A stretch of 64,000 nucleotides of DNA from a virus: IMG/VR virus record IMGVR_UViG_3300045988_168112. One strand, given 5' to 3'. The notes under the pieces are model-generated. The model did not search any database and had not been told where the DNA came from. It worked only from the letters and a program-made list of their open reading frames with translations. Within the stretch, counting starts at the first letter, position 1. Every line of letters begins with the position of its first letter. Of this stretch, positions 3,429 through 64,000 are shown in pieces. The position numbers and the translations under genes are program-made.

Positions 3429-3432
3429 AATC

Positions 3433-4059: not shown

Positions 4060-4103
4060 ACGAAAGCGAATTATGGGAGAGATTTCTCCCTCCCTTTATT
4101 TTA

Positions 4104-5450: not shown

Positions 5451-5459
5451 GATACTTAA

Positions 5460-5744: not shown

Positions 5745-5747
5745 AAT

Positions 5748-6278: not shown

Positions 6279-6300
6279 ATCTTCAATTCTTTAACATTGG

Positions 6301-6331
6301 TAAAATTACTGTTTATTCTCGTTTTATCCAA
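6301..6331 (-). promoter_or_regulatory. Bacteroidota-type promoter candidate (TTG-N20-TAATTTTA)
   Basis: On the minus strand the sequence reads GTTGGATAAAACGAGAATAAACAGTAATTTTA. The -7-like box ends 22 nt before the ATG at 6278, in a 98-bp intergenic gap. Confidence 0.4.
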
Positions 6332-6376
6332 CTTATCACATCCTTAATGTGTACTTCATTAGATGAAAGAATGAAC

Positions 6377-16063: not shown

Positions 16064-16094
16064 TAAAGATACACCTTTGGACCACGCGGTCCAA
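16064..16094 (-). promoter_or_regulatory. Bacteroidota-type promoter candidate (TTG-N20-TATCTTTA)
   Basis: The minus strand reads GTTGGACCGCGTGGTCCAAAGGTGTATCTTTA. The GTTGGACC and AAAGGTGTATCTTTA blocks and their spacing are the same as at 60629-60659. Confidence 0.45.
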
Positions 16095-16097
16095 CAG

Positions 16098-29496: not shown

Positions 29497-29559
29497 CAAT
29501 CTCCCTCATCAAAGACCAGTCCATAACAATAGAGGCTCTAAAGGTAGGGGTGTGGGTGA
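29497..29559. repeat. left arm (IR-L) of a perfect 63-bp inverted repeat
   Basis: CAATCTCCCTCATCAAAGACCAGTCCATAACAATAGAGGCTCTAAAGGTAGGGGTGTGGGTGA. I checked base by base that it equals the reverse complement of 32526-32588. Confidence 0.95.
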
Positions 29560-37000: not shown

Positions 37001-40000
37001 TTGAAATTCCCAGTCTTTGTGTTGTAATGCTGCTTGCTTACACTGTAAGACATATTTACTGGAGAAATGTACATTTGCACTATTCCATCCGTATTCGTCG
37101 TTCCTGTCTGATTGACGGACATCCCACTGAATGTTACTGATGCACCGCTTAACTCACCGTATAAATTAGAGGTGATATATACCGGAATTCTCTTCGAGCA
37201 TGTATATACAAGGTCTTTTGTTTTTGTGTCAGAATAATTTAACGTCGCTACGGCTCCGTTACCTTCGTAAAAAGTGACTGGCTGTATCTGGAAACGCTCT
37301 GCAATACCTGCATACACGGTTTTTACAAATCTTCCGTTTGCGTCCGTCGTTACATTATCACCGGATGATTCGCCATTATCATTGTAATAACATGCAAGAA
37401 TCATCCCGGCTTTTACCGGATTTGCTGTTGTCGTGGAAATAGAAGGTATTATTTCCTTTACCGTATAAGTGACTGAAATCGTTCTTCTTACTACCGTGGG
37501 GGAAATCGTATTGTTTACCGGAAGAACAATATCCCATGTTTTGTTATTAAAATTACTGTTTCCTCCTCCGAATGTGATATTATATCTTCCTGGGGGTATG
37601 TTGAACTGTCCGTTTCCTTTGGATGTAAATACACCATTTTCATTAGTTGTTCCGGTAAAACTATATGCTTGTGATGGTGTGCCGCCCCAATTACTCACGG
37701 CTGTTACTGGACAGTTTACTGCTACCGATTCATAAGGCTCCATGCTTTTTAGGTTTACGGTCATTGTTATTTCCGCATACCCCATGATTATGTCTATATA
37801 ATCGGCTGACAATGGAGGTGTAAACGTACCTGTCTTGTCCGTATGGTCTGCTACTGTACATTCATAGCTCATTGCAATAGGTGAGATGTACACGCTTGCC
37901 GAACCGTCACTTCCGGATGTCACTGTTTGAGGCAAAGACATTCCGGACACGGTTATTTCCGCACCTTCAAGCGGTCTTAACGTGTTCTGCTGTTTTACCC
38001 TTAATTCTACTTTCTTTGAACATGTGATTTCCATAAGCGTAGGTACACTCGCTCCGAAACCCCAATTCTTAATCAGTAAACCGTTGTTCTCATAGAAACC
38101 TTTCTCTTTTATTGTCAACTGATAATCAATACCCGGCATTACTTCCGGAAATATCTTTCCTGCCGCATTCGTCGTATATTCTCGTACATTATCGTTGAAC
38201 ATGTTCTTTACTGAAACAACAATTCCAGCCTTGACCGGATTGAAGTTCAGAGCGGCTTTCTGTTCGGCAGCTATCTTTACAGTTACCTGGCTTACCGGAG
38301 TCGTTATCGTCACATCCACATAGAAAGTTCTCGGCTGTGCATCACGTGTCACATTCGGCTGCACTGTCAACATCGTACCTTCCAAAGAAGCTATTTCGTC
38401 ATTTGACACGTTGAATACCAATTCTGCACCTCCGCTTGCAAAATCATATGGCTCGTCCTCACCGCCAATTTCTGCACGTCGAAAAGTTTTTACATGTTCC
38501 ATCAAATCAAACGTCACTCCTTTGTTAGGAACAACGAAGTTTTCCGGTGTATGAACTATGTAATAATAACTGTCATTAGATAACGTCTCAGTCGTATTTT
38601 CACCACTGAATCTTACTGTAGTAGCATCACCGGACACACCGGGAATATTCTCTATTACATCAACTTCCGGTTCGATTTCCCTTCTTGTCATAGTAAAAGG
38701 AAGGTCTATATCCTTCAATTTTTCAAGCGTTATCGACTGGTTTTCTACCGCATCATAATATCTGTGTGTCGCATTCCAAGTGTATTCCCCTGCTTCCGCT
38801 CCAAGCTGCAATACGCCTATATCATTCGTATAACCGGAATCCACTTTAATTCCGGTCCCCTTGTTTATCAATTCGATATATACACCGGAAATAGGAGTCT
38901 TCGTTATCGCGTCCGTTGCAGTGTATGTTATTACAGTATCTCTCAATTCAAGATAAATAGTTTCTACAACATCTTGGTCTTTAATTACAACTTGTCCAGT
39001 GTATCTTTTATAATTTCTTTGAGTAACTACATAATCATGAGTTCCATTACCAAGAGTTACAGTTGCTACACCATTTATATTTGTAATTTTTGTTTCTTCA
39101 TTGATATTCAATTCAGCACCTTGAATATAATTACCATTCTCGATATCACGAACAATTAGTTTTAATGTATAGAATGCCTTGTTTAATTTGATAATCTTAG
39201 ATATAGGTGCATCATCCACAACAATAAAGTCTGAATACGACATATAACCGCTTCTAAACACTGTATAAGTAAATGTACCGTTCGGTAAGCTTACAATAAC
39301 TACACCATGTTCGTCTGTTAGATATGTAGATTCGTTAATTGAAACTGTTGCATTAGGAATCACCATATCATTTTCTGAATCAAGAACAGTAAATTTAACC
39401 TCATAGGGAATAGCATCAAGCTCAACAAGAATACAATTCGGTTTTTCTCCTACTATATCAATTGTTTCGTTGTACTCTTGATATCCTTCTTTCATTACAC
39501 GCATCTCATATTGACCTACCTGAAGTCCCATTTGAGCTTGTCCTTCATTGTCAGTTCTTTGAGTTGTATTTGTAACTGTAATATCTGCTTGAGGTACATA
39601 AATACTTCTTCTTCTATCAATAACAGCGAAATTGACTGTCAATGATTCAAGAAACATTCTTTCAAAGATTTCTACTGGTTTATTTTCAACAGTCAAAACA
39701 CTTTCAATGGTTTTAAATCCAGCTTTTGATACTGTATAACTATATGTTCCAGGTTCTAAATCTACAGAAGCTATACCTGTATCATCAGTTTCAAGAGTAT
39801 TAATTCCAATCTTGATTTCTGCACCTTCCATAGGAGCTTCACCTTCGTATATCGTGAAAGTCACTTTATAAGGGGTTGCTTCAAAATTATTAATCGTTAT
39901 AAAAATTGGACCATTTAATACTACAAATTCACCAGTCTGTTGAATCCAGTTTGCTTTATTCAATGTATATGTATATTCACCATTTTCAAGTAATACGTTA

Positions 40001-41319
40001 GCAGTACCAGATTCATCTGTTGTAATAACTTTGTTCCCAATAGTAATAAACGCACCAGGAACTGCAACATTCTTCAATGTAGTTACAGTAAATGAAACAA
40101 GATATTTCTGAGAAAGAATTGCAGATTGTGAACCTTTATAAATATCACTCTCTCCTGCTGGATAAAAAATATTAGAAAGACTACTACCAGAATCATATAA
40201 AATGTTTCCTTCCAAGTCTCGCATTCTGAATCCTTTGATACGAGGTAACATATTCAAAGGAACTTCTTCGTCAAAGTAAGGAAAGAAATATTCATCCGGC
40301 ACATATTTCACACCTTCCGCAGTTTTAACGACTTGAAGTAAATCATCCCATTGTACAACTTTTCCTGCTTCCCAAAAACGGAAATCAAGATACTTCGTCA
40401 TAGCAATTTGGATATTCTTTCTTGCATCAGCAATATTTATATTAGGAGATAATTCAACACGGAAATCAATACCTTGTTCTCCTCCAACATACATCCATTT
40501 TGCATTTTCAAGAATAATACCTACTGATTCACCTGATAAATTTAATTCAGTTAAACCAAAATAAGGAGTAGCTTTTTCAAGTAATTCTTCAAGCTCATCA
40601 TCTGTAAAGAAAGAACCATTCTGAGTTACAAGATAAATATGAGTCTTTCCATCTTCACCTAATCCTACATTCATAACCTTCAGAATTCTATCATCAAGGT
40701 CTTGGAAAATCTGTGTCCAAGATTCCACTGTTTCTTCTGAAAGTCTGTTATTGTAATTTATAATTCTGTTTCTAAAAGTCTCGTCATCTTCATAATCACG
40801 TCCACCAATAGCTGCATATTCGTTAGTACATTCTATATGCGTCAATGGTCTTGGAGAAACTTGTGTAATACTATTAGCTTCTACATTCGTAGCAGAACCA
40901 GTGATTACACTTCTTACACTTACATATCCATAACCAGAATTATCAACTGTAAACGGTTTATCTACAACGAATCTGATACCATTCTTAGAAATAAAAGTTG
41001 TACCTACTTCATATAATGTTCCAGGTTCAGCATATACTCTTATATAAGTAGATGAGCCAAGAGCTTGTTTTCGAGGACTTACACCAAACAATGCTGCTGA
41101 TTTATCCAGATATGTACCAGTTGCAGATGTAGGAAATATCTGTGCTTCTACAATAGCAATATCTTTAATTGCTTTTTGAGCAACTTTTGCAGTACCAAAT
41201 GCAACTGCATTCAACACTGAACCATCTGCTATGTTAGAAACCTTATCTGTTTTGTTTAAAAACATTTCAATCCACAAATTCTTCAGATTTGCGATTGTGT
41301 TACTTACCTTTGTTATCAT
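31057..41319 (-). CDS. giant baseplate-J-like / tail-fibre fusion protein (3,420 aa)
   Basis: The N-terminal ~390 aa resemble the Baseplate_J (P2 gpJ / T4 gp6) family (GSVLNAVAFGTAKVAQKAI...TSATGTYLDKSAALFGVSPRKQA). Dozens of CarboxypepD_reg-like beta-sandwich repeats follow, then five larger ~165-aa modules, then a C-terminal ~510-aa cassette inside the invertible segment. Confidence 0.85.
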   Translation of the reverse strand: MITKVSNTIANLKNLWIEMFLNKTDKVSNIADGSVLNAVAFGTAKVAQKAIKDIAIVEAQIFPTSATGTYLDKSAALFGVSPRKQALGSSTYIRVYAEPGTLYEVGTTFISKNGIRFVVDKPFTVDNSGYGYVSVRSVITGSATNVEANSITQVSPRPLTHIECTNEYAAIGGRDYEDDETFRNRIINYNNRLSEETVESWTQIFQDLDDRILKVMNVGLGEDGKTHIYLVTQNGSFFTDDELEELLEKATPYFGLTELNLSGESVGIILENAKWMYVGGEQGIDFRVELSPNINIADARKNIQIAMTKYLDFRFWEAGKVVQWDDLLQVVKTAEGVKYVPDEYFFPYFDEEVPLNMLPRIKGFRMRDLEGNILYDSGSSLSNIFYPAGESDIYKGSQSAILSQKYLVSFTVTTLKNVAVPGAFITIGNKVITTDESGTANVLLENGEYTYTLNKANWIQQTGEFVVLNGPIFITINNFEATPYKVTFTIYEGEAPMEGAEIKIGINTLETDDTGIASVDLEPGTYSYTVSKAGFKTIESVLTVENKPVEIFERMFLESLTVNFAVIDRRRSIYVPQADITVTNTTQRTDNEGQAQMGLQVGQYEMRVMKEGYQEYNETIDIVGEKPNCILVELDAIPYEVKFTVLDSENDMVIPNATVSINESTYLTDEHGVVIVSLPNGTFTYTVFRSGYMSYSDFIVVDDAPISKIIKLNKAFYTLKLIVRDIENGNYIQGAELNINEETKITNINGVATVTLGNGTHDYVVTQRNYKRYTGQVVIKDQDVVETIYLELRDTVITYTATDAITKTPISGVYIELINKGTGIKVDSGYTNDIGVLQLGAEAGEYTWNATHRYYDAVENQSITLEKLKDIDLPFTMTRREIEPEVDVIENIPGVSGDATTVRFSGENTTETLSNDSYYYIVHTPENFVVPNKGVTFDLMEHVKTFRRAEIGGEDEPYDFASGGAELVFNVSNDEIASLEGTMLTVQPNVTRDAQPRTFYVDVTITTPVSQVTVKIAAEQKAALNFNPVKAGIVVSVKNMFNDNVREYTTNAAGKIFPEVMPGIDYQLTIKEKGFYENNGLLIKNWGFGASVPTLMEITCSKKVELRVKQQNTLRPLEGAEITVSGMSLPQTVTSGSDGSASVYISPIAMSYECTVADHTDKTGTFTPPLSADYIDIIMGYAEITMTVNLKSMEPYESVAVNCPVTAVSNWGGTPSQAYSFTGTTNENGVFTSKGNGQFNIPPGRYNITFGGGNSNFNNKTWDIVLPVNNTISPTVVRRTISVTYTVKEIIPSISTTTANPVKAGMILACYYNDNGESSGDNVTTDANGRFVKTVYAGIAERFQIQPVTFYEGNGAVATLNYSDTKTKDLVYTCSKRIPVYITSNLYGELSGASVTFSGMSVNQTGTTNTDGIVQMYISPVNMSYSVSKQHYNTKTGNFKPTGTETRMDIELEAKEYPVTFHVSTQGVLPPDGILVRVTNNVLPDMVFEGETNTEGTIVMPNVPVGEYTYEVLAGEVSSDTFSHPQSESGTVLDVEVQYELINAGIQVSEVYGTAGRAYLSNQTITMTSKAGTIKLTLDENGYTNQLLIKNLEYTFTTDSYPSFYSNPTQSYTWTEDGVIWPFDLNVTSKITVNVKDVYAKNNIQGVTVTYNEQMVTTDASGNASLFRSALEKDYSLDKEDYSTVNGTIAPTTASPLNVTMLRNKHVVTVQQYEVIPGGASVILDGGYNFTLSYTSAAGNGTITSGTNTFEAYLGIPITFAVIAENRRVFYSNPTQTHTFTTAGEVWNMNLTCAKQITVNVKDNVPGQNIQGATVNYFTQTKTTDASGNAVFYWSGSDPRNISVSAANLESYTGQIRFDSTSPFNIVMTRAANPVTLVVREITPAQTTYYQNLQIKYTAGSATGTLTTNASGAVTFNGYIGTEMTFTVVGHPEFYSNPTQKHTYTAANQSWTMDLTVTAKITINVKSNVPSGTNLSGATVSYFHQTGTTDSSGNVSLYRSSVTRNVDITATYHGNYRGSITSDTASPFNAVMTRSTATVSLGVSEEVLFKSQYVLEIKTSTGATSPGLGGFYFGTPTAANKEFVVFFHAKIPTGYSLFFQSNATGTGGSATRRWLTDNKGTGVWTWYAHYIRCGASGSFSTTNFFNLDGGSKPVTWQIDTASVFDISGSNSQNKSYAEITQICTVDKMVSANKDFLFSNGSNNINVYNNESTDAVTITRKAFPSNTFGWTVALYSSMKMNFSPAASTSPLTLDTNGNVSFVCYLGTPVTFTPVTRPNYYSNPNTALTYTAAGQVRTIQLICNQKIVINTVANIYNTSNALSGTITYFGQTLPSGGSFYRSGLDRQMTATAQYFNNYVGTVTATQTSPYTVTMNRTTRTVTLTVVEKVPNITATHPLGSAVIVRSVPTGSNAPAGEITLDASGKKTNTVYAGINYTYTPKNNASYYSNASQEWTWVSENQSWTMTLNVTARLTFNIKSSNYGTNISGVSCSYLGQTGTTDSSGNWTVYRSGINRGYSFSKTNYNALSGTLSATQASPLNLKMSETSSSITITMKDYYQNAVKGNANGCPVTLTNKSLSSVTFAGTTNSSGQVSFGPMIAGSYTLSWGGGTSYWVNGSTTITMPTATTTQNAVRLTKSVAVVFRIRVPLSTPLLGWWRVNTLVKPIFTTAGVATTVTLTQNSAKTVYYYGTYTFIAGITTNIAAYKASYYVTGTTTTETTYNITPNYNFSNIGHNSDATAFYSTAIKSIVVTVQNSYTNAAVSGATIKVYGINGDSSDSNNYATQTVTTNSSGQATIYVSGTTMRYVVSATRYVTLNTTNTNTSNFTIKLVPSEVTITITVKDASTGTSVGSGVIVKLSSNNTSTAYSGTTNTSGQVVLTIKPGNYWWEAGGSTTWGGNGTGDWNYPNRSTTAISLIKDQSITIEALKVGVWVSNRRVEQYYSYIDNYYKPFKGAYTGIVNLASEESKLYAVSNSFGIVFFVTTGTKSYTLGRSVYLSGSSFETYYIAKLYKKDETNLWYNNSSIYVSTNAMTKYLGVSISHPVYNFDSTKLPVITYIHYVIDAVICWTATQVRRYYSVNDAWTFTSSDLYYSNNAISDQYKYFNNYSVRKYASVIKTMPRSNGRIKSYMIGTHSNYEFIVVSISEQYVSNNILNFSDLPGYPYKDEGRVEHMGWLTLISDNEKVVILVKSQDRSYGTTYAQFYYGIWKSSLGEYGDDLESVRNWSCYYNIPSAITSVIGGDYWVSPDLKWLFYISLNRANYQGFSKGLHIIKGSSALFGENGWTGVSYEMEGGGTDILNACQNYYILDVQFNNKSNKIIVFGNSSKGAFTNPSSTYSYAEGIQPDIILYFIWVENQKKFVRLNSSYIGGDALWNDYSNSTSGGKGNIYKPLINFVNGEINFMYPGGNEPLNAYRYNLSFGD
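32526..32588. repeat. right arm (IR-R) of the perfect 63-bp inverted repeat, inside the giant fibre ORF
   Basis: Reverse complement of 29497-29559. It encodes (A)ISLIKDQSITIEALKVGVWV(S) at codons 2911-2931 of the 3,420-aa ORF. Confidence 0.95.
33700..36800 (-). repeat. five tandem ~500-bp coding modules within the giant fibre gene
   Basis: The block (F/Y)YSNP(T/N)Q..T(W/F/Y)T recurs at about 36,500, 36,010, 35,510, 34,480 and 33,985. Each is followed by (I/L)T(V/I/F)N(V/I)K...G(A/V)(T/S)(V/C).Y..QT.TTD(A/S)SGN. Some DNA stretches are identical between modules, for example GCGTTTCCGCTTGCATCCGTCGT at about 35,832 and about 36,330. Coordinates are approximate. Confidence 0.6.
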
Positions 41320-56588: not shown

Positions 56589-58112
56589 TTACAAACCTTC
56601 GTCACCAATGTTAACGATACGTACAATCTTAGCAGGCTGATATAATACCGGAGTACCATAGTTCAAGATACAGAATCGACGACTCGGAGCAGTAACTGCA
56701 AAGTCCATCTTAACAGTATCAGAGAACTGTAAGTATTCGTTAATCTGACTATCATTGTAATATACCAAGGCAGACTTGGTACCTGCAATGATACGGTTGC
56801 GGTCACGTACACAATTTGCAGCAGCACCATCATAACCAGTTGCCATCTGAGAAACAGGTACTTCAAAAATCGGGAAGTATTCTGTCGTATCATTCAAAAC
56901 AGCATCTTTCTTTGTACGATAAATAACAAATGAAGAAGCTGCATAAGCACCACCTACACCAGCAGTAACACCGAACTCAACTGACTGAGTTGCAGTAACA
57001 GCTTGAGCACCAGCAGATGTAATATTCAAAGGTGCAGATTCACCATAACGATTCTTTGCAGTTACCAAGTAACCATAAGCACCTGCATGACGACCAAAGT
57101 TAGTCTTAGTATCAGCATTATTAACCTTAATTGCTGTTCCAGCAGTCGGAGCAACCGGAGCAACCGGAGCTTTCGGACTTGTAGCGCCTTTACCTACTCT
57201 AATAGGCTTACGAACATCAAAGAAACGGTCATTCTTAATGTTAATTTTACCAAACTGGGTTGTAACATCATTTACAGACTGACCCATAGTAGCACCAGTT
57301 ACAGAAGCTGCAAGACCTACGATAACTCGCTTGCTTTCGTGGAACTGTTGTACGTAATTGTTGAATACAATCGGGTTAGAGATGATTCGGTCAATATAAC
57401 CATTATAAACATTCACCACAACATTAGATGCATCCTGAATCATCTTATCATTCAAAACCTGATTCTGAGCATCAATAACAGCCGGAGAATTGAAATAACC
57501 ATCAAGCAGTTGTTCAGAAGTCTTACCTTCTGCTGTACCACCGTCCATTTCATTTACACCCAACATGTGCTGACGGAATACACCATCAAACTCGATATCA
57601 ACACAAGAAGAGTCTGCACTTGTCAATGCTGTGTCAATCAATGTCTGTAGCAAAATGGTCTTATTCTCAACTTCCTGACGATACATGTTATCAATACCGT
57701 TGTATTCAGCAATCATTGCAGGATGAGTTACTTGACCAGTAACACCCATGTATTTAGTCAAGATTGACTTACGTCTGTATTGAGAATCGGTTTCTTCAGG
57801 GGTTTCACCTTCAGTATTGAAGATACTGATATCTTCACCATACTTATACAACTGATTGTACTGATGAACATTCTGTTTAATCTTCTGTTTCGGCATTTCC
57901 ATATAGTACACCAACTGATTCAATCTATTGGTCAAAATCTTCAAGACTGAATCCAAGGATTCAACTTTCAGACCACCACCATTATTAATCATGTTGTTGT
58001 ATTGCATACCGGTCATAGAACCGGCTTCCATAGCTTTCAAGATATCGTTTGATGACAGTCCATCGAACAAATCGATATCTGTTCCGTTATTAGTGTATTG
58101 ATACAAATCCAT
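56589..58112 (-). CDS. major capsid protein
   Basis: 507 aa. It follows the protease and scaffold genes and is followed by a strong terminator. Its codon composition is visibly GC-richer than its neighbours, consistent with high expression. Confidence 0.7.
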   Translation of the reverse strand: MDLYQYTNNGTDIDLFDGLSSNDILKAMEAGSMTGMQYNNMINNGGGLKVESLDSVLKILTNRLNQLVYYMEMPKQKIKQNVHQYNQLYKYGEDISIFNTEGETPEETDSQYRRKSILTKYMGVTGQVTHPAMIAEYNGIDNMYRQEVENKTILLQTLIDTALTSADSSCVDIEFDGVFRQHMLGVNEMDGGTAEGKTSEQLLDGYFNSPAVIDAQNQVLNDKMIQDASNVVVNVYNGYIDRIISNPIVFNNYVQQFHESKRVIVGLAASVTGATMGQSVNDVTTQFGKINIKNDRFFDVRKPIRVGKGATSPKAPVAPVAPTAGTAIKVNNADTKTNFGRHAGAYGYLVTAKNRYGESAPLNITSAGAQAVTATQSVEFGVTAGVGGAYAASSFVIYRTKKDAVLNDTTEYFPIFEVPVSQMATGYDGAAANCVRDRNRIIAGTKSALVYYNDSQINEYLQFSDTVKMDFAVTAPSRRFCILNYGTPVLYQPAKIVRIVNIGDEGL

Positions 58113-58144: not shown

Positions 58145-58813
58145 TTACTTTACAAATTTAATACCATTTTTAGTGTACATGTAACGAGCCAATTCTTCAC
58201 CTACTGTTTCAGCATAAGGATTGGTCATATAATTCAATGCATCAGCTTCCAGAGATTTTCTAATTGAATCGTCACTTTCGTTAGTGAGAGCTTTTTCAAT
58301 CATCTTAGCTACCATCGGACGTTGATTGATGATATTAAGTTCAATCTTTCCATTGTCATCCTTTTCAAAGTTCATAGACTTCTGAATAGCTGACATGTTG
58401 TCCAAACCTTCTGAACGAAACTTCGGTGCTTCTTGACCAAACTTATCCATCTTAGCACTCAGGTTATCCAGACTTTCAGCCATACGCTCAATGATAGGAT
58501 TGAAGATTGAACCTACAGACTTCATAATCATTGATTCCATAGATTTCATCATTTCACCTTCTGCATTCTTATCTTCGGCAGTATTCTTTTCATCCTCTTT
58601 CACCTTCTCTTCTTTCTTGACAGCTTCTTTTTCAAGCTTATCAATATCTTCCTCTTCTTTTGTTTCAGACTCATGGTCACCACGAGCTGCTTTATCTTCA
58701 GATTTTTCAATCTTAATATCGCCATTAGCTATTGCTTTTTCGATATATTCCTCGCTAAAGTTTGCATCCAGCAATGACTTCACGATTTTGTTGTCTAAAT
58801 ATTCCTTTTTCAT
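58145..58813 (-). CDS. scaffolding protein
   Basis: 222 aa, strongly acidic and K/E-rich helical. It lies between the protease and capsid genes. Confidence 0.55.
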   Translation of the reverse strand: MKKEYLDNKIVKSLLDANFSEEYIEKAIANGDIKIEKSEDKAARGDHESETKEEEDIDKLEKEAVKKEEKVKEDEKNTAEDKNAEGEMMKSMESMIMKSVGSIFNPIIERMAESLDNLSAKMDKFGQEAPKFRSEGLDNMSAIQKSMNFEKDDNGKIELNIINQRPMVAKMIEKALTNESDDSIRKSLEADALNYMTNPYAETVGEELARYMYTKNGIKFVK

Positions 58814-58867: not shown

Positions 58868-59647
58868 TTAAATTCGCTGACTTTTTAAGAAATCTTGAAG
58901 AACATTTATAGAAATATGACCCTCTTCATAACTTTTGAATAGATTTTTAAGAATCTCATCATTCTTCGCTTTAAGAGGCTCGATTCTAATTCGAAAATCT
59001 TTATCAATAGAAAGAATATGTCCATCCTTTTCCATTTCAAGTAAAATGTTAGTTGTTCGAAAATCTTTATCAGATTCAAATTCGTAATCTACATAATCCT
59101 TAGTTTGAACTCCCTTTACAATATCTGCAAAAGTATTTGCATTCACTGGAGTCATAGTCATTGCAAGATTCGTAATAAGAGCTTTTTTGATTTTCTTAGG
59201 ATTTGACTTATCTCTTTCAAGAGCTTTACCTTCTATACTAAAACCAGGTTTACGATTGGTACCTGATTCTTTCATCTCAAGTGCCTTATCATAAAATGCT
59301 CTTGCTTCAGGAGATTTTTTCCAAAGTTGACATTTTACATAAAACTTATTATTTTCAACTTTTGCACTAATAGGTGCTCCAATCCAAAAACGAGATTTAT
59401 TAATAGGTGAGCGAGAGGTTAAATGGTCTAAATTTATTAAACCATGTTTCAAAAATCGGTCAATTATAAAACCATTAGGTTCCATAGATTCACCTTCTGC
59501 ATCTTCAGATGTATCGGAAGCCAACCCTTCAAATATCATTCTTTCGTATCTCCTATCATCACCAATTGGATAATCGAGAGGATTAAAAGAAGATTTCTCA
59601 AAGTCAGCTTCTGTAAAAAAGTTAAATCTTGAACCTATTTCAAACAT
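58868..59647 (-). CDS. prohead serine protease (HK97 / S78-like)
   Basis: HGLINLDHL..., GFSIEGKAL and ITNLAMTMTPVNANT resemble the H...S.G...(E)VSLV..PAN blocks of HK97-family prohead proteases. The gene lies upstream of the scaffold and capsid genes. Confidence 0.7.
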   Translation of the reverse strand: MFEIGSRFNFFTEADFEKSSFNPLDYPIGDDRRYERMIFEGLASDTSEDAEGESMEPNGFIIDRFLKHGLINLDHLTSRSPINKSRFWIGAPISAKVENNKFYVKCQLWKKSPEARAFYDKALEMKESGTNRKPGFSIEGKALERDKSNPKKIKKALITNLAMTMTPVNANTFADIVKGVQTKDYVDYEFESDKDFRTTNILLEMEKDGHILSIDKDFRIRIEPLKAKNDEILKNLFKSYEEGHISINVLQDFLKSQRI

Positions 59648-60468
59648 TTTCGTTTCTGTTCCATAATCACCGAATTTAGAAATTTATCAATCAAATCATC
59701 GATTTCTTTGTATCTTCTCACTCTTTTCCAATCATTTTCAGAAACTTTCTTCTTCGTTCCCATAATTGCACCGAAAATCGCTGCATTTGTATCAGTATCT
59801 TCGCCATAATTGATAACTGAACAAAGGTCTTCAAAAAGTGTAGAATTCTTATTTTCTTGCGCTAAATAATTATCAATCACGAGATTATATGTGTTTATCA
59901 CATCACCTCTATTATCATAATCATTCACCTCAAGATTTTCCATCGGCAAATCTCCTAACAAATTTTTGAGTATGCAACAAAATTTACTACCGAATTCAAA
60001 ACAATTCTTATTATTGTGTGTATAGCAACAAAACGCTTCAAATAGATTTTTCGTATATTCATCAGATTCATTCAAACAAGCTATTGCAATAGGAAGTGAA
60101 TAAAACAATGCACCGTTGCCCATTCTATCTGTTCTTGAACATCCTTTGCACTGTATTGATTCTACTGTTTGATTTCCAATATCAAACAATCTACTTCCTG
60201 CATTGAATTTCTTGTTTTTATACCATAAATCCAAGTTCTTTTCGAATTTATCAATCTTCTTGATATTTTCTCCAGGTGTACAAAAAGCATCTAATAAACA
60301 CAATAAAACAGATGTATCGTCAGACCACGTTCCCTCTATCTGTCCATGAATTCCTCCTGAAGCGAATCCACAACAGAGAAATGTTCCTTCACTTCTAAAT
60401 TCAAAAGGAACACCAAGTACATCTCCAAGGATATAGGCTCTGATACTATTTCTTATCTTCTCTTTCAT
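59635..60468 (-). CDS. ADP-ribosylglycohydrolase (ARH / DraG family)
   Basis: IRAYILGDVLGVPFEF, GTWSDDTS and YGEDTDTNAAIFGAIMG match the ARH metal-binding blocks. The track start (60516) adds 16 poorly fitting residues. The ATG at 60468 (MKEKIRNSIRAYILGD) gives the usual family N-terminus. Confidence 0.8.
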   Translation of the reverse strand: MKEKIRNSIRAYILGDVLGVPFEFRSEGTFLCCGFASGGIHGQIEGTWSDDTSVLLCLLDAFCTPGENIKKIDKFEKNLDLWYKNKKFNAGSRLFDIGNQTVESIQCKGCSRTDRMGNGALFYSLPIAIACLNESDEYTKNLFEAFCCYTHNNKNCFEFGSKFCCILKNLLGDLPMENLEVNDYDNRGDVINTYNLVIDNYLAQENKNSTLFEDLCSVINYGEDTDTNAAIFGAIMGTKKKVSENDWKRVRRYKEIDDLIDKFLNSVIMEQKRKCLK

Positions 60469-60607
60469 TGTTCTCGAATTTCTTTGCATTCTTAATTGCA
60501 TTGTCAACCATTTCATCAGTTGCTTTTTTCCTCTCTTCTTCAGTAGGAGTATGAATAATACTCATTGTACTGCAGTCATTCCATCTTGATACTTTCTTTG
60601 TTTCCAT
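60446..60607 (-). CDS. small ORF (53 aa), below the track size cut-off
   Basis: My translation is METKKVSRWNDCSTMSIIHTPTEEERKKATDEMVDNAIKNAKKFENNEREDKK, ending at TAG. Its ATG is 22 nt downstream of a strong promoter motif. It overlaps the ARH start (60468) by 23 nt in another frame. Confidence 0.35.
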   Translation of the reverse strand: METKKVSRWNDCSTMSIIHTPTEEERKKATDEMVDNAIKNAKKFENNEREDKK

Positions 60608-60628
60608 TAGCTTTTTCTTTTTAGTATC

Positions 60629-60659
60629 TAAAGATACACCTTTTATTAATGTGGTCCAA
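60629..60659 (-). promoter_or_regulatory. Bacteroidota-type promoter candidate (TTG-N20-TATCTTTA)
   Basis: The minus strand reads GTTGGACCACATTAATAAAAGGTGTATCTTTA. The flanking blocks and spacing are the same as at 16064-16094. Confidence 0.45.
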
Positions 60660-60675
60660 CAATTCTAATAAAAAG

Positions 60676-63282
60676 TTACACCATTTCGACAACAATTGAA
60701 TTAAGTCCTTTAGCAAGAACTTTGAATTTACTGAATCTCTGTGTCAAGTATTCATATTCATCAACTGTATTATTGATATTCGCAACTTTATCTCCTTTCT
60801 TAGCCAATAGTGTTATTTGGAAGTCACTTCCAAACAAAGATAGTTGTTTTAATGAAAACGAACTAAAACTCTTATCTTCTATAACAGAACCAACTTCAGC
60901 GTTCAATAATTCATTTAGGCTATTCATATCTCTTGCTTCTAATCTTCTATACAGAACTAAATTTTCTTTGCAAGGATTTTTATCTATTGCTTCAGCAATT
61001 AATTGAGCCATTAAAGCAATTCCTGTTCCACCACCTTTACCGTAATTATAATCTCGAATAGCTTCATAATCAGTACCCATATATCTTTTTAAAGCTTTAT
61101 ATTGAGTCTTAGTAACTTTTAACTTTTTACCTTGTTTTTCATAATAATCTATCATTTCACCTTCATCTTCGAGAGTATGACCTGTAAAATGTTTATACTT
61201 CACACCATTCCATTCTGAATATAAAACACCATTAGCTACTGGAAGATAACCTGAATCAATAAGTACTTTGTTTACTTCAGCTCTTTGTGTTGATTCTAAA
61301 TAAGGATATTTACTAAGGATTTCTTCAAAATCTTCATCTTCAATATAATTTTTAAACCTTTTCTCAATATTTTCATCGATAGTAACTGAATCAAGTACTT
61401 TCCCAAATCTTTCTTTTTGTTCTTTATCTAAAGTATCGTTTTGAGAATTCCTTTTCTTCAAGAATTCTTTGAATTCTTTCTCAGCTTCAAACTTCACATC
61501 GTTCTTTTCTTCTTTAGTATCTAATTTTTTTAGATTATCTTTCAAAGCAAAAACACCTTGATGTTTCGGCCAAGACATAGATTTATTGTTACTCAAATCT
61601 TCCAATAAATACTCTCCTTTATCTTCGTCTCGAGAAAATCTATAATCTACACCATTTTCAGTAAATTCAACTGCCTTACCTTCATCTAACTTCTGTAAAA
61701 TCTTACCATACAGTATCATACCAGCTTGTGACTTTATAGAATCCATTTTAACTACTGGTTTATCAATTTTATCTTTCTTCTCTTCAACTTTCGTTGATTC
61801 TGGTTTCTTAGCTTCTACTGCAAGTTCTGATTTAGATTCTTCTTTTTTAAGAGTCTTTTCAAATTCCTCCTTCACCCGTTTCTTGAATTCATTGAGAGGT
61901 TCATTTGGCTTAGATTCCATATAGAAGGAACCTTTCTTAGCTTTATATTTATCCTCTCCCTTCATATTAAGAACAATTGTCTGACCATCAACCTTAACAT
62001 AGGTTTGAGTGATTTTCTTGAAACCATTCATTTCATTGAGTTTCTTATCGATACTATCAGAAATATCTTGCTTCAATTTATCCAACTTAGAATCAAGTGT
62101 CTTCTCATCTATAGGTTTAGTTTCTTTCGCCTCTTTATTCTTAGCTATCTTTTCTTTGATTTTATTAATTACAGACAAATCTAAATCAAGTTCACCTTTT
62201 TCTTGAGCATCAAGAATACGTTGAAGAGCTGATGTAATACCAAGCTCATTCGCAGATTTATCATCTGACACTTTACCTTTACGATTCTCAATTTCCTTTT
62301 GAGCTGCCTGCTTGACTTCAAGAGAAGCATCTTTATCATTGATTGCAGCTTGTAACTGTTCATCACTTGCTTTAGATGCGTGTTGAGAGTAATCAACTTT
62401 TGCAGTTTTAGCTTCAGATTGTTGTTCATCTTTTTTTGAAGATTTTCCTTTTCCTTTAGGTCTCCAACCGTTAGCAGTTTTCACATATACCTTACCTCCC
62501 CACGTCTTTTCTGTACCAATAGGGGATGATTTCTTAGCTTTCTCTATAATTTCGTCCATAAGTTGTTGTTCAATATTTAGATTTGTTGTATCTTTAGGAA
62601 CAGAAAGAGCGTTGGAGCTTATTAAGGGATTGAGCCTTGCCGAGTCCATATCATTAGAACTATCAGGTCCATCGAGTATAGTCAAGCTCTTTTTAATTTT
62701 ATCTTCAATCTTAATATCTTTATTGTAAGATGTTAATACCCAAAGTTTTTCTCTAAAATTATCATCTTCATCATAAACTACAGACTTTGTAAGTGTCACT
62801 TTCCATTCTCCTTTATAGATATTTACTTTCATCCCGTTTTCATAGAATTTCCCTATTTGCCCATTTTTCAATATATCTGAAATCCTATCTGCTATATCTT
62901 CATAAGATTTAAAATCATTTTGTTCTATAAAATGACGTTTTCTTATATGACGAAGACCTTTTCTTTCATCTCCCCAAATTATATCTATCTTACCAAGTCC
63001 TTCTCTTTCTATAGCTCCAATCACTTGACCGTTTCTTTCTTTCAAAAGAAAATCAATAGCTTCTTTAGGTTTACCTGCATATTTAAAATAATTCCGACCA
63101 AAAACTTTTAATTCGTCTTTAGCATATCGCTCTTTACTTACCTTTTGTCCTTTTACTACTCGCCAACTTCCATCGGCTTGTTTCTGATATTTTACATTCT
63201 TCCATATCCTAATTTCACCAACTACGGCTTTTGCTTTCATTAATTCATTAAAATCTTCTTGATTCTTTATTGTTTGCATCAT
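60676..63282 (-). CDS. polyvalent virion-type protein: N-terminal GLRHIRKRH nuclease-like domain, K/E-rich linker, C-terminal ADP-ribosyltransferase (R-S-ExE)
   Basis: The C-terminus has LVLYRRLEA (Arg), DKSFSSFS (S-x-S) and VDEYEYL (ExE), the catalytic triad pattern of R-S-E ADP-ribosyltransferases. The N-terminus has IIWGDERKGLRHIRKRH, which resembles Barnase/EndoU/RelE-like domains of phage polyvalent proteins (weaker call). The first ATG is at 63282; the track start at 63285 is TTG. Confidence 0.75.
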   Translation of the reverse strand: MMQTIKNQEDFNELMKAKAVVGEIRIWKNVKYQKQADGSWRVVKGQKVSKERYAKDELKVFGRNYFKYAGKPKEAIDFLLKERNGQVIGAIEREGLGKIDIIWGDERKGLRHIRKRHFIEQNDFKSYEDIADRISDILKNGQIGKFYENGMKVNIYKGEWKVTLTKSVVYDEDDNFREKLWVLTSYNKDIKIEDKIKKSLTILDGPDSSNDMDSARLNPLISSNALSVPKDTTNLNIEQQLMDEIIEKAKKSSPIGTEKTWGGKVYVKTANGWRPKGKGKSSKKDEQQSEAKTAKVDYSQHASKASDEQLQAAINDKDASLEVKQAAQKEIENRKGKVSDDKSANELGITSALQRILDAQEKGELDLDLSVINKIKEKIAKNKEAKETKPIDEKTLDSKLDKLKQDISDSIDKKLNEMNGFKKITQTYVKVDGQTIVLNMKGEDKYKAKKGSFYMESKPNEPLNEFKKRVKEEFEKTLKKEESKSELAVEAKKPESTKVEEKKDKIDKPVVKMDSIKSQAGMILYGKILQKLDEGKAVEFTENGVDYRFSRDEDKGEYLLEDLSNNKSMSWPKHQGVFALKDNLKKLDTKEEKNDVKFEAEKEFKEFLKKRNSQNDTLDKEQKERFGKVLDSVTIDENIEKRFKNYIEDEDFEEILSKYPYLESTQRAEVNKVLIDSGYLPVANGVLYSEWNGVKYKHFTGHTLEDEGEMIDYYEKQGKKLKVTKTQYKALKRYMGTDYEAIRDYNYGKGGGTGIALMAQLIAEAIDKNPCKENLVLYRRLEARDMNSLNELLNAEVGSVIEDKSFSSFSLKQLSLFGSDFQITLLAKKGDKVANINNTVDEYEYLTQRFSKFKVLAKGLNSIVVEMV

Positions 63283-63296
63283 CAATTGTTTTTATT

Positions 63297-63372: not shown

Positions 63373-64000
63373 TTAATGTAACTGCAAACGATACTTCGTC
63401 TGTTTGAGTGTTGCCATAAAATCTTCAACCCAAGACTTTTCACCTGCATAATTTTGCTTGTCTTCGAGTTTAGAATAGAATTCTTTTGTCCTATCAATAA
63501 TCAGATTGATAAGTCCTATCGGGTCATCAACTTCAATTTCTTCACCGTTGATTTCACCTTCTTTGAATCGTCCGAATTCTGACTGTCCTGCTTCCATTAT
63601 CTTATCTTCATAATCTGAAAGTTCCTCTATCAAATCATCGAGATATTGATGTTTAGCATTATCTTCTTCACTCCAATGGATATTCTTTGATTTCGTCTTC
63701 ACGCCTTCAATGAAATTAGCAAAATCAGCAAACACTCTGTACATCTCATCTTTTGCTTTTAGAATCTCAGAACCATCATCTAAAGAAACGTTACTGTTTA
63801 TCTCTTTACGAATATCATCTATACCCCAAGATTTCTCTATTTCTTCATCAGAAACAAGAATCTTGTTTATATCGAGTTTTCCTTCGTTTTTCATCTCATT
63901 CAGTAAAGATTTGAACATATCAGCTTGGTCGAGGTCATTGAAGTCAATTAACATTCTAAAACCTGTTGGTTCTTCAGTTTCAATCTCAATAGATTTTTCT
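63373..64000 (-). CDS. hypothetical acidic protein; ORF is open to the right edge
   Basis: The track ORF starts at 63954, but the frame stays open upstream to nt 64000 (EKSIEIETEEPTGFRMLIDF...), so the true start may lie outside the window. There is a weak resemblance to Dps/ferritin-like helices (IHWSEEDNAKHQYLDDLIEEL), which I do not rely on. Confidence 0.45.
   Translation of the reverse strand, partial: EKSIEIETEEPTGFRMLIDFNDLDQADMFKSLLNEMKNEGKLDINKILVSDEEIEKSWGIDDIRKEINSNVSLDDGSEILKAKDEMYRVFADFANFIEGVKTKSKNIHWSEEDNAKHQYLDDLIEELSDYEDKIMEAGQSEFGRFKEGEINGEEIEVDDPIGLINLIIDRTKEFYSKLEDKQNYAGEKSWVEDFMATLKQTKYRLQLH

What the first reader, a model, noticed from the sequence alone, without database searches (positions are those of the whole stretch)
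59635..63285. ADP-ribosyltransferase-bearing polyvalent protein paired with an ADP-ribosylglycohydrolase and a promoter-driven 53-aa ORF
The 869-aa protein ends in an R-S-ExE ADP-ribosyltransferase domain (YRR / SFSSFS / EYEYL). It starts with a GLRHIRKRH-containing domain reminiscent of the nuclease-like modules of phage polyvalent proteins, which are packaged in heads and injected. Its location just upstream of the protease, scaffold and capsid genes fits a virion-delivered effector. After a 159-bp promoter-containing gap that also holds the start of the 53-aa ORF, the next large gene is a full-length ARH (DraG/Tri1-like) with intact metal-binding blocks. A writer and an eraser of ADP-ribosylation are thus encoded side by side. 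Known writer-eraser pairs of this kind, such as DraT/DraG and Tre1/Tri1, act as regulatory or toxin-immunity systems. In a phage this could mean self-protection during assembly, timed reversal of host takeover, or countering a host ADP-ribosylating defence. A strong promoter motif (60629-60659) drives an unannotated 53-aa ORF that overlaps the ARH start, so it may be a third component.
Basis: partly seen in the sequence, partly recalled or inferred. Interest (0 to 1): 0.7.

Follow-up and report, generated by a model that had tools for sequence, protein, structure and literature searches.

The report
Phage ADP-ribosylating toxin with antidote genes
A large uncultured human-gut phage carries, inside its head-assembly genes, a fast-evolving protein-modifying toxin followed by a tiny conserved protein and an enzyme that removes the modification, which is a new version of a toxin-plus-two-antidotes arrangement recently shown experimentally in a Bacteroides prophage.

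Summary
The 869-aa ORF (60676-63285, minus) has a PBECR1 domain and a C-terminal R-S-ExE ADP-ribosyltransferase (ART). The next large gene is an intact ADP-ribosylhydrolase (ARH) whose closest solved relatives are the immunity hydrolases Lmo0067 and Tri1.

- **53-aa ORF:** it is a real gene. It is kept in every related clade, dN/dS is 0.1-0.4, and it always ends about 20 nt inside the ARH.
- **Promoter:** it is real but of the Bacteroidetes type (GTTG-N20-TATCTTTA), not sigma-70. It is conserved across clades and recurs upstream of other genes in the window.
- **Cassette:** ART, small ORF and ARH sit between the Nudix-DUF5856 gene and the prohead protease in many ~105-kb gut myovirus contigs. 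It is absent from one relative. It evolves far faster than the capsid gene.
- **Variation:** PBECR1 is optional. Some lineages keep the ART and small ORF but lack the ARH.
- **Orphan pair:** a Parabacteroides integrative element carries a small-ORF-like protein plus an ARH, with no ART.

The closest known system is Bxa-Bsi-BAH (JBC 2024). The differences are no MuF fusion, a polyvalent architecture and a probably virulent phage. Virion packaging is untested. I rate it a new variant of a known kind, of moderate interest.

The parts
60676..63285 (-). Gene for the 869-aa modular effector. Domain order: PBECR1, long charged linker, ART.
   Evidence: ORF. Pfam PBECR1 and ADPrib_exo_Tox. Homologues at 68-99% identity on ~100-108 kb contigs.
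62716..63015 (-). PBECR1 (Barnase/EndoU/ColicinE5-D/RelE-like nuclease) domain, residues 91-190. This module is optional.
   Evidence: Pfam E=1.6e-10 to 9.8e-12. It is absent in the 517-640 aa variants, and its identity is only 35-100% where the rest of the protein is ~90%.
60718..61125 (-). R-S-ExE ADP-ribosyltransferase domain. Catalytic Arg (YRR) is near 60946-60948, S-x-x-S is at 60859-60870, and E-Y-E is at 60751-60759.
   Evidence: ADPrib_exo_Tox at 37.3 bits. Vip2 alignment. Invariant E203/E205. Foldseek top hits are Vip2, C2-I, CDTa, iota-Ia, C3 and 8za7_B. The model has pLDDT 67.5.
60625..60660 (-). Promoter-like element GTTG-N20-(G)TATCTTTAGATA. The -7-like box lies 29 nt upstream of the small ORF's ATG.
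   Evidence: Conserved across all clades while the flanks diverge. GTATCTTTA occurs 7 times on the coding strand. Five sites are intergenic and 29-53 nt upstream of ORF starts. A sixth lies 34 nt inside a TTG-extended ORF. The pattern GTTG-N17-22-TATCTTTA has 3 matches against 0.23 expected. The sigma-70 scan does not find it.
60446..60607 (-). 53-aa conserved small protein. It is the candidate non-enzymatic immunity or adaptor protein, and its stop lies 23 nt inside the ARH gene.
   Evidence: A gene is called at this position in related contigs. Homologues of 51-59 aa are present in clades whose ARH is at least 53% identical to the window's. dN/dS is 0.10-0.43. There is no Pfam, PHROG, NCBIfam or PADLOC match.
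59635..60468 (-). ADP-ribosylglycohydrolase (ARH) of 277 aa. The longest ORF extends to 60516.
   Evidence: PF03747 at 86 bits. phrog_6572 at E=7e-34. Metal-ligand blocks are invariant. The best PDB relatives are Lmo0067 (E=9e-38), Tri1 and DraG.
58868..59647 (-). Prohead maturation protease, which overlaps the ARH stop by 13 nt. It is followed by scaffold (58145-58813) and major capsid protein (56589-58112). This is context, and probably the same transcription unit.
   Evidence: phrog_1028 at E=1e-35 and phrog_752 at E=4e-51. ORFs.
63373..64000 (-). 3' part of the upstream Nudix-DUF5856 gene, which runs off the window. This is another NAD/ADP-ribose-theme gene. In a distant clade the Nudix domain is fused to the ART.
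   Evidence: DUF5856 at E=8e-9. The reading frame is open to the window edge. The homologues of 600-619 aa carry NUDIX + DUF5856. The 955-aa protein of L041 carries NUDIX + DUF6496 + ART.

Best explanation
This is a three-gene toxin/effector-immunity cassette embedded in the head-morphogenesis block of a ~105-kb gut myovirus. The host is probably a member of the Bacteroidales.

**Effector.** The large gene makes a modular effector. Its constant business end is a C-terminal, arginine-type (R-S-ExE) mono-ADP-ribosyltransferase. The N-terminal PBECR1 nuclease-like module is an exchangeable extra.

**Immunity module.** Immediately downstream lies a conserved Bacteroidetes-type promoter. This promoter also feeds the highly expressed protease, scaffold and capsid genes. 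Behind it sit two overlapping (translation coupling inferred) genes: a ~53-aa protein and a Tri1/Lmo0067-like ADP-ribosylhydrolase. These protect the producing cell. The hydrolase strips ADP-ribose from modified targets. The small protein most likely binds and blocks the transferase.

**Delivery.** The effector then acts unopposed wherever it arrives without its antidotes. That could be inside the next host after ejection from the capsid, or outside after lysis.

**Shown here:**
- domain identities and intact catalytic motifs;
- conserved order and co-loss of the genes;
- fast co-divergence of the three genes;
- coding selection on the small ORF;
- a conserved, recurrent promoter motif.

**Inferred:** enzymatic activities, arginine specificity, toxicity, which partner the small protein binds, and virion packaging.
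For: **Domains and motifs:**

**Fold:** the ART model's best PDB matches are all R-S-E ARTs. They include chain B of 8ZA7, titled 'ART-ARH type toxin effector-immunity protein pair'. The ARH profile's best PDB match is the partner chain 8za7_A (E=9e-38), followed by Tri1.

**Conserved order.** The order Nudix-DUF5856, ART, small ORF, ARH, protease, scaffold, MCP is found in L003-L040. In L041-L045 and L049 (MCP 42% identical) the Nudix domain is fused to the ART.

**Co-loss:** the relative MT835500 (MCP 67%) lacks the cassette.

**Arms-race tempo.** At a constant ~83% MCP identity, the ART is 47% identical, the ARH 67% and the protease 80%. The pairwise ART-ARH Spearman correlation is 0.94.

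**Small ORF:** dN/dS is 0.10-0.43. A small ORF follows the ART even where the ARH is absent (L169, L172). The L172 small ORF is 55% identical to that of L039, which does carry an ARH.

**Promoter:**

**Experimental precedent.** Bxa is an ART in the head module of a Bacteroides prophage. It is toxic to bacteria and is neutralised by the adjacent hydrolase BAH and by the small binder Bsi (PMC11699363).
Against: - No activity, toxicity or packaging data exist for this protein.
- The effector lacks the MuF domain, which is thought to tether such toxins to the capsid. MuF appears to be a separate gene upstream in relatives. This is my reading of an HPFCRC motif and was not profile-tested.
- The ART gene is interrupted by frameshifts in several contigs. 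These could be assembly errors at A-runs or real inactivation.
- A small-ORF-like domain travels with an ARH and without any ART in a Parabacteroides element. In L021 the small ORF is fused to the N-terminus of a second ART protein. Neither fits a simple ART-inhibitor role well.
- Within the window's own clade the small ORF is in the same linkage block as the ARH, not the ART. ART identity is 82-98% while the small ORF and the ARH are ~96-100% identical.
- The AF2 model is only moderate (pLDDT 67.5, TM ~0.45).
Confidence: 0.65

Rival explanations
1. Timed host-takeover switch. The ART is a T4-Alt-like regulator. It is injected with the DNA and reprograms host transcription or translation early. 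The late-expressed ARH erases the marks once they become counter-productive, rather than protecting against a lethal toxin.
For: The ART is of the Alt/VIP2 R-S-E type. T4 Alt is head-packaged and injected (PMC5512222). The ARH lies behind a promoter shared with late structural genes.
Against: A regulator with a fixed host target would not be expected to evolve faster than every neighbouring gene. Nor would it be expected to show toxin-like domain shuffling, duplication (L021) and loss of the eraser in some lineages. The closest characterised relatives are toxin-immunity pairs.
Confidence: 0.15
2. Counter-defence. The ARH, with the small protein, exists to reverse ADP-ribosylation imposed by host ART-based immunity or by competing elements' toxins. 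It is only incidentally next to the phage's own ART.
For: An ARH plus a small-ORF-like gene occurs without any ART in a Parabacteroides integrative element. ARH immunity proteins are known to act on non-cognate ARTs (my recollection of the Tre1-Tri1 work, not checked here). Iyer et al. 2022 argue that phage ARGs act on macromolecular ADP-ribose adducts (PMC9503650).
Against: In the phage loci examined that carry a close relative of this ARH (37-99% identical; L003-L045, L049), the ARH sits directly after an ART, and the two co-diverge tightly. Both are missing together in MT835500. Nothing here points to a host ART defence in the probable hosts.
Confidence: 0.12
3. The ART is chiefly a fitness factor aimed at the mammalian host, like Bxa. 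It is released at lysis and acts on gut epithelial proteins. The ARH and small protein serve only to keep the bacterial producer alive until release.
For: Bxa, the closest functional analogue, ADP-ribosylates epithelial cytoskeletal proteins and promotes colonisation (PMC11699363). The cassette is widespread in human-gut metagenomes.
Against: This phage has its own DNA polymerase and helicase, and no lysogeny gene was noticed in the 64-kb window (no systematic search was made). A strictly lytic phage gains little from conditioning the mammalian host for a lysogen. No signal sequence or delivery domain is evident.
Confidence: 0.08

Closest known systems
Bxa-Bsi-BAH of the Bacteroides stercoris prophage PhiBxa (Alexei et al., J Biol Chem 2024, PMC11699363; MuF polymorphic toxin family)
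   Same: A large protein (also 869 aa) with a C-terminal ART is encoded in the phage head-morphogenesis region. It sits beside a small non-enzymatic ORF and an ADP-ribosylhydrolase. The host lineage is the Bacteroidales. Experiments showed toxin neutralisation by hydrolase reversal plus binding by the small protein.
   Different: - Bxa's N-terminus is a MuF domain. Here it is PBECR1, nothing, or Nudix.
- Bxa is in a prophage. This phage is a ~105-kb myovirus with its own replication genes.
- Bsi has at least 92 residues, against 53 aa here.
- Sequence homology to Bxa, Bsi or BAH could not be tested. The genome scan did not return B. stercoris.
ART-ARH effector-immunity pairs of secretion systems: Listeria Lmo0066-Lmo0067 (PDB 8ZA7) and Serratia Tre1-Tri1 (PDB 6DRE)
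   Same: Both partners are homologous. The ARH profile matches Lmo0067 at E=9e-38 and Tri1 at 1.9e-21. The ART matches Lmo0066 at E=0.012 by sequence and 1.8e-7 by fold. The genes are adjacent.
   Different: Those pairs are two-gene systems. Tre1-Tri1 is known (from my own knowledge) to be exported by a type VI secretion system, and the export route of the Listeria pair was not checked here. This cassette is in a phage head module and has an extra small ORF. The NCBIfam Tri1 equivalog score is 49 bits against a cut-off of 490.
Polyvalent proteins of phages and conjugative elements (Iyer et al., J Bacteriol 2017, PMC5512222)
   Same: Unrelated effector domains (PBECR1 + ART, or Nudix + ART) are combined in one large polypeptide. 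The gene lies among virion genes. Delivery with the DNA is predicted.
   Different: That survey found polyvalent-protein ARTs to belong to the H-Y-D clade. [quoted passage not shown] Here an R-S-E ART is fused to PBECR1. No cognate ARH or small-ORF immunity module was described there.
Phage T4 Alt
   Same: An R-S-E ART that is packaged in the head and injected (PMC5512222).
   Different: My recollection is that T4 encodes no ARH or immunity gene beside alt. This was not checked here. Alt is a regulator of RNA polymerase rather than a rapidly diversifying toxin. No sequence match was found in GenBank phages.
DraT-DraG, and the predicted ART-ARG toxin-antitoxin pairs of Aeromonas phages (Iyer et al., Viruses 2022, PMC9503650)
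   Same: An adjacent writer and eraser of arginine ADP-ribosylation. The 2022 survey already lists a phage ART-ARG pair.
   Different: The ARH here is at most 27% identical to the Aeromonas, Cronobacter and Streptomyces phage ARHs. The DraG equivalog score is 31.7 bits against a cut-off of 337. The genomic setting (head module, polyvalent fusion, small ORF) also differs.

Membership tests
R-S-E ADP-ribosyltransferases (Pfam PF03496 ADPrib_exo_Tox; Vip2/C2/iota/C3/Alt type) | Profile match above the curated threshold | tested here: met
   37.3 bits against a cut-off of 23.4, E=2.4e-9, on the C-terminal 229 aa. The full-length scan missed it at E<=0.01.
R-S-E ADP-ribosyltransferases (Pfam PF03496 ADPrib_exo_Tox; Vip2/C2/iota/C3/Alt type) | Catalytic Arg, S-T-S and E-x-E motifs in register | tested here: met
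   YRR, FSSFS and EYEYL align to Vip2's YRW, YMSTS and EKEIL. E203 and E205 are invariant, and R140, S166 and S169 are nearly invariant, in 15 sequences at 19-99% identity.
R-S-E ADP-ribosyltransferases (Pfam PF03496 ADPrib_exo_Tox; Vip2/C2/iota/C3/Alt type) | ART fold | tested here: inconclusive
   The top 50 Foldseek PDB hits are all R-S-E ARTs (E down to 3e-9, probability 1.0). However, the model has pLDDT 67.5 and TM is only ~0.45.
R-S-E ADP-ribosyltransferases (Pfam PF03496 ADPrib_exo_Tox; Vip2/C2/iota/C3/Alt type) | NAD-dependent ADP-ribosyl transfer to a target | not testable with these tools
   Needs an enzyme assay.
ADP-ribosylglycohydrolases (PF03747; DraG/Tri1/ARH1 type) | Profile match above threshold, and conserved binuclear-metal ligand blocks | tested here: met
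   86.2 bits against a cut-off of 26.2. D16, E23, S49-D50-D51-T52 and D224-T225-D226-T227 are invariant or nearly so in 19 homologues. The alignments to Lmo0067 and Tri1 cover these blocks.
ADP-ribosylglycohydrolases (PF03747; DraG/Tri1/ARH1 type) | Equivalog-level membership in Tri1 or DraG | tested here: not met
   NCBIfam Tri1 scores 49.1 bits against a cut-off of 490. DraG scores 31.7 bits against 337. The protein is a distinct subfamily.
Polyvalent proteins (Iyer et al. 2017) | Two or more unrelated effector domains in one phage- or plasmid-encoded polypeptide, including family-specific domains such as PBECR1 | tested here: met
   PBECR1 + ART. NUDIX + DUF6496 + ART in L041.
Polyvalent proteins (Iyer et al. 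2017) | ART of the H-Y-D (Tox-ART-HYD2) clade, as described for the class | tested here: not met
   The ART is R-S-ExE. [quoted passage not shown]
Polyvalent proteins (Iyer et al. 2017) | Packaged in the virion and delivered with the DNA | not testable with these tools
   The only evidence is the gene's position between the portal/Nudix genes and the protease/scaffold/MCP genes.
MuF polymorphic toxin systems with dual immunity (Bxa-Bsi-BAH) | N-terminal MuF domain fused to the toxin | tested here: not met
   Pfam finds PBECR1 and no Phage_Mu_F in the 869-aa protein. Variants have no N-terminal domain or have Nudix.
MuF polymorphic toxin systems with dual immunity (Bxa-Bsi-BAH) | C-terminal ART toxin in the head-morphogenesis region, followed by a small ORF and an ADP-ribosylhydrolase | tested here: met
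MuF polymorphic toxin systems with dual immunity (Bxa-Bsi-BAH) | Sequence homology to Bxa, Bsi and BAH | not tested
   The sequences were not obtainable. The genome scan with the ARH profile returned Parabacteroides faecalis and many ~30% Collinsella hits, but not B. stercoris.
MuF polymorphic toxin systems with dual immunity (Bxa-Bsi-BAH) | Toxicity neutralised by the hydrolase and by binding of the small protein | not testable with these tools
   Needs co-expression and pull-down experiments.

The most novel reading that the evidence does not exclude
The small-protein-plus-ARH pair may be a mobile anti-ART immunity module traded between phages and their hosts. In phages it protects the producer from its own packaged ART. 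The copy in the ~6-kb Parabacteroides integrative element is 50% identical in the ARH and has no ART. It sits two genes from a PADLOC candidate defence gene (PDC-S57, E=2e-71). That copy would be an orphan immunity used by the bacterium as an anti-phage defence. It would work by neutralising the effector that incoming phages inject, a defence mode that has been predicted (Iyer et al. 2022) but not demonstrated.
Probability: 0.2. Interest if true: 0.7.

Novelty: new variant of a known kind. Interest (0 to 1): 0.45.

Why it matters
If the reading is right, a widespread group of ~105-kb human-gut phages carries a fast-evolving ADP-ribosylating weapon with a two-layer antidote.

- **Wider distribution.** The Bxa-type logic would extend beyond MuF-fused prophage toxins. 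It would reach large, probably virulent myoviruses and proteins with a polyvalent architecture.
- **Exception to a published generalisation.** The cassette contradicts the statement that R-S-E ARTs are absent from polyvalent proteins.
- **A natural experimental series.** Variants exist with and without PBECR1, with and without the ARH, and with a duplicated ART. They can be used to dissect why some toxins need an enzymatic eraser as well as a binder.
- **A concrete candidate for effector-neutralising immunity.** The orphan small-protein-plus-ARH pair in a Parabacteroides element sits next to a candidate defence gene.
- **Practical use.** The conserved GTATCTTTA motif gives a usable promoter signature for annotating this phage group.

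Tried and rejected
- **Sigma-70 promoter and terminator scan.** It reported nothing at 60629-60660, and the total number of sites was no higher than in shuffled sequence. I replaced it with a test of conservation and recurrence.
- **DNA search of GenBank phages with the cassette.** No match. A protein search with the ART domain also found nothing. There is no cultured relative to lean on.
- **Third homologue search, with the ART domain alone.** Only 8 hits, of little use.
- **Genome scan aimed at the Bxa locus of B. stercoris.** It did not return that species, so direct homology to Bxa, Bsi and BAH is untested.
- **Literature search for Lmo0066/Lmo0067.** No paper on the pair turned up. Only the PDB title is used.
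- **Idea that ARH homologues with N-terminal extensions (P0176, P0152) are natural small-ORF-ARH fusions.** The small-ORF HMM does not hit them, so I dropped it.
- **Deciding by co-variation whether the small ORF partners with the ART or the ARH.** All three genes co-diverge. The partial correlations are weak (0.13 against 0.25), so this is inconclusive.
- **Extending the small-ORF family by HMM to the positional analogues in L039, L041, L167-L169 and L172.** They are not detected. I therefore call them positional equivalents only, apart from the L172-L039 pair at 55% identity.
- **PADLOC on the ART, the ARH and the small ORF.** No hits.

Full report
**What is there.** All genes in this part of the window are on the minus strand, in this order:

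| Gene | Coordinates |
|---|---|
| 3' part of a Nudix-DUF5856 gene, which runs off the window | 63373-64000 |
| 869-aa ORF | 60676-63285 |
| 53-aa ORF | 60446-60607 |
| ADP-ribosylhydrolase (ARH) | 59635-60468 |
| Prohead protease | 58868-59647 |
| Scaffold | 58145-58813 |
| Major capsid protein (MCP) | 56589-58112 |

The window also encodes a tail sheath, a large terminase, a DnaB-like helicase and a DNA polymerase. The capsid protein is 33% identical to those of the 167-179 kb Bacteroides thetaiotaomicron DAC/SJC phages. It is 67% identical to that of an unannotated human-faecal phage scaffold, MT835500. Close relatives of the 869-aa protein sit on human-gut contigs of 100-108 kb. The element is therefore an uncultured gut myovirus of ~105 kb, probably infecting Bacteroidales.

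**Domain checks.**
- Pfam finds PBECR1 at residues 91-190 of the 869-aa protein (E=1.6e-10).
- Scanned alone, the last 229 aa match ADPrib_exo_Tox above the curated threshold (37.3 against 23.4 bits).
- The best PDB sequence matches are Vip2, C2-I and Listeria Lmo0066. In the Vip2 alignment YRR, FSSFS and EYEYL fall on the catalytic R, S-T-S and E-x-E.
- Across 15 ART domains from different clades (19-99% identity) the two glutamates are invariant. The Arg and Ser positions are nearly invariant.
- An AlphaFold model is only moderate (pLDDT 67.5). Even so, its top 50 structural neighbours are all R-S-E transferases. They include chain B of 8ZA7, deposited as an 'ART-ARH type toxin effector-immunity protein pair'.
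- The 445-aa middle region has no family match.
- The ARH matches PF03747 (86 bits). It keeps every metal-ligand block in a 19-sequence alignment.
- A profile of that alignment finds Lmo0067, the partner chain in 8ZA7, as the best solved relative (E=9e-38). Tri1 (1.9e-21) and DraG follow.
- The ARH is far below the equivalog thresholds for Tri1 or DraG, so it is a separate ARH subfamily.
- An E-x-E transferase paired with a Tri1/DraG-like hydrolase implies arginine ADP-ribosylation. This is an inference from what is established for those families.

**The small ORF is a gene.**
- Gene callers predicted it in every related contig I inspected.
- Homologues of 51-59 aa occur in every clade whose ARH is at least 53% identical to the window's. 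They share an RW[NSE][DE]...S[IV][IV]...[ST]xEE[ERV]K pattern. Their indels come in multiples of three. Their stop always lies about 20 nt inside the ARH gene.
- Nei-Gojobori dN/dS on the non-overlapping part is 0.10-0.43 wherever dS is not saturated.
- In L021 the same sequence is fused in frame to the N-terminus of a second, divergent ART protein. This again shows that the frame is translated.
- The ORF has no match in Pfam, PHROGs, NCBIfam or PADLOC.

**The promoter.** The 68-nt spacer nevertheless contains GTTG-N20-(G)TATCTTTAGATA. This element is conserved in all clades while its flanks diverge. It lies 29 nt upstream of the small ORF's ATG.
- In the window, GTATCTTTA occurs seven times on the coding strand.
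- Five sites are intergenic and 29-53 nt upstream of ORF starts (60636, 43036, 29457, 16071, 14043).
- A sixth lies 34 nt inside an ORF whose listed start is an extended TTG. Only one site is clearly intragenic.
- About 5% of positions lie within 60 nt upstream of an ORF start. By my hand calculation from the counts, the chance of this enrichment is of the order of 1e-6.
- The compound pattern has 3 matches against 0.23 expected.
- The motif resembles the Bacteroidetes -33 TTTG / -7 TAnnTTTG promoter (established knowledge). That fits the probable host.

The small ORF, the ARH and probably the protease, scaffold and capsid genes thus lie behind their own promoter, separate from the ART gene.

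**Comparative anatomy.** I scanned IMG/VR with the ARH profile and tabulated the neighbours by tblastn.
- Every phage locus with MCP at least 69% identical has the order ART, small ORF, ARH, protease, MCP.
- A much more distant group (MCP 42%, ARH 37%) has the same order. There the ART is the C-terminus of a 955-aa NUDIX + DUF6496 + ART fusion.
- MT835500 (MCP 67%) goes straight from the Nudix-DUF5856 gene to the protease. The cassette is therefore accessory.
- At a nearly constant ~83% MCP identity, the ART is on average 47% identical to the window's, the ARH 67% and the protease 80%.
- Across 11 clade representatives the mean identities are 42% for the small ORF, 46% for the ART and 57% for the ARH. 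ART and ARH divergences correlate at Spearman 0.94. This is a fast-evolving, co-diverging island in a conserved head module.
- The N-terminal architecture is fluid. PBECR1 is absent in the common 626-640 aa variants and in the 517-aa protein of L010. Where present, it is only 35-100% identical next to ~90% identical linkers.
- L021 carries two ART genes in tandem.
- Several contigs have the gene broken by frameshifts at different places.

**Which gene is indispensable.** A second IMG/VR scan, this time with the ART profile, found lineages that keep the ART and a small ORF but have no ARH.
- In L169 and L172 the order is ART, small ORF, protease.
- L167 and L168 carry a repeat protein in place of the ARH.
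- The small ORF of L172 is 55% identical to that of L039, which does carry an ARH. So the small ORF stays with the ART when the hydrolase is lost.
- Conversely, a ~6-kb Parabacteroides integrative element carries an ARH 50% identical to the phage one, with no ART. The element also encodes an integrase, an HTH_17 protein, a Phage_CRI replication protein and a T5orf172 protein.
- That ARH is preceded and overlapped by a 107-119 aa ORF. The C-terminal 45 residues of this ORF are the top hit outside the phage small-ORF family to the small-ORF HMM. The E-value is 0.017 in 26,397 ORFs, which is marginal.
- The element's T5orf172 protein matches the PADLOC defence candidate PDC-S57 at E=2e-71.

**Comparison with the literature.**
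- Iyer et al. 2017 defined polyvalent proteins and PBECR1. [quoted passage not shown] This protein is an exception.
- Iyer et al. 2022 found ARG/ARH domains to be rare in phages. [quoted passage not shown] The ARH here is at most 27% identical to those.
- The closest system is experimental (Alexei et al. 2024, PMC11699363). [quoted passage not shown] It promiscuously ADP-ribosylates bacterial proteins and kills E. coli. It is neutralised by the adjacent hydrolase BAH, which acts enzymatically. It is also neutralised by the adjacent small protein Bsi, which co-purifies with Bxa and is modelled in its active site.

The window's cassette reproduces this three-part logic with a different N-terminal module and in a different kind of phage. 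I could not obtain the Bxa, Bsi or BAH sequences, so homology, as opposed to analogy, is untested.

**Mechanism.** My best reading, at ~0.65, is a toxin/effector with two-layer immunity. The ART is made late with the head proteins. The ARH, expressed from the internal promoter together with very abundant structural proteins, reverses any self-modification. The small protein probably blocks the transferase. The effector then acts without its antidotes after delivery. I put the small protein's role as an ART binder at roughly 50-55%.
- For that role: it persists with the ART when the ARH is lost, and Bsi is a precedent.
- Against it: it shares a linkage block and overlapping reading frames with the ARH. 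It also accompanies an ARH in an element that has no ART, and it is fused to an ART in L021.

Packaging in the capsid is plausible from position and precedent, but it is untested and there is no MuF fusion.

**Rival readings.**
- A T4-Alt-like timed regulatory switch.
- ARH-based counter-defence.
- A Bxa-like factor aimed at the mammalian host.

**Verdict.** The finding is a new variant of a kind demonstrated in 2024. It is therefore moderately interesting rather than surprising. The most novel angle is the orphan small-protein-plus-ARH pair in a Parabacteroides defence-context element.

Noticed in passing
window 43036, 29457, 22507, 16071, 14043 (minus strand): The same GTATCTTTA box found upstream of the small ORF recurs 29-53 nt upstream of other gene starts. 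The site at 16064-16095 also shares the GTTGGACC...AAAGGTGTATCTTTA context. This looks like the phage's general Bacteroidetes-type promoter signature.
   Followed up: partly
L021 2176-5996 (IMGVR_UViG_3300045988_153617): There are two ART genes in tandem. The first is a 414-aa ART. The second is a 773-aa protein whose first ~48 residues are the small-ORF sequence, fused in frame to the linker and a divergent second ART (NRW / SYSSFT / EEHEYM). A different 60-aa ORF then overlaps the ARH start.
   Followed up: partly
L012-L014 and L064 (Parabacteroides contigs), locus coordinates ~2300-7810: A small integrative element carries an integrase, an HTH_17 protein, a Phage_CRI protein, a T5orf172 protein matching the PADLOC candidate PDC-S57 (E=2e-71), an 87-aa ORF, and a 107-119 aa ORF with a small-ORF-like C-terminus. 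It also carries an ARH 50% identical to the phage ARH. It has no ART.
   Followed up: partly
L167 5840-7666 and L168 5978-7072: In ART-bearing relatives that lack the ARH, the slot before the protease holds a 364-608 aa protein with repeated 'F.GWYD'-type units. I did not scan it against family libraries.
   Followed up: no
window 63150-63225 and ~62470-62530 (residues ~22-45 and ~254-277 of the 869-aa protein); also L010, L041, L021: A short motif of the form [VI]GE.R.W....K.Y.K....GW.P occurs at the N-terminus and again after PBECR1. It is present in every architectural variant, including the Nudix-ART fusion. It may be a common anchoring or packaging module. It has no Pfam match.
   Followed up: no
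L005 1-1881 and L010 1-1200: In some relatives the portal gene is ~1011-1014 aa and carries Intein_splicing and LAGLIDADG hits. This indicates an intein-containing portal. Other relatives have a 571-aa portal.
   Followed up: no
L007-L009 4161-6783; L015 3100-5800; L017 1562-4262: The polyvalent ART gene is split by frameshifts at different positions in different contigs. Two independent samples (L015, L017) share the same two shifts. These could be assembly errors at A-runs, real inactivation or phase variation. ART-only proteins of 261-289 aa also exist as database clusters (P0241-P0245).
   Followed up: partly
window 6377-8452 and 8433-10049 (minus strand): Two adjacent, slightly overlapping ORFs match the C-terminal and N-terminal halves of the same DNA-polymerase PHROG (phrog_405). 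The polymerase is therefore split, or there is a frameshift.
   Followed up: no
window 31057-41319, 23951-29422 and 29550-31004: There is a 3420-aa ORF and an 1823-aa ORF on the minus strand. The latter's only match is phrog_9915, of unknown function. Between them lies the only sizeable plus-strand ORF that does not lie inside a minus-strand gene (484 aa, no PHROG match).
   Followed up: no
L001 5734-6945 (MT835500): The relative that lacks the ART cassette has a 403-aa ORF between the portal and the MuF-like gene. By eye it looks like an IS605/TnpB-type transposase. I did not test this.
   Followed up: no
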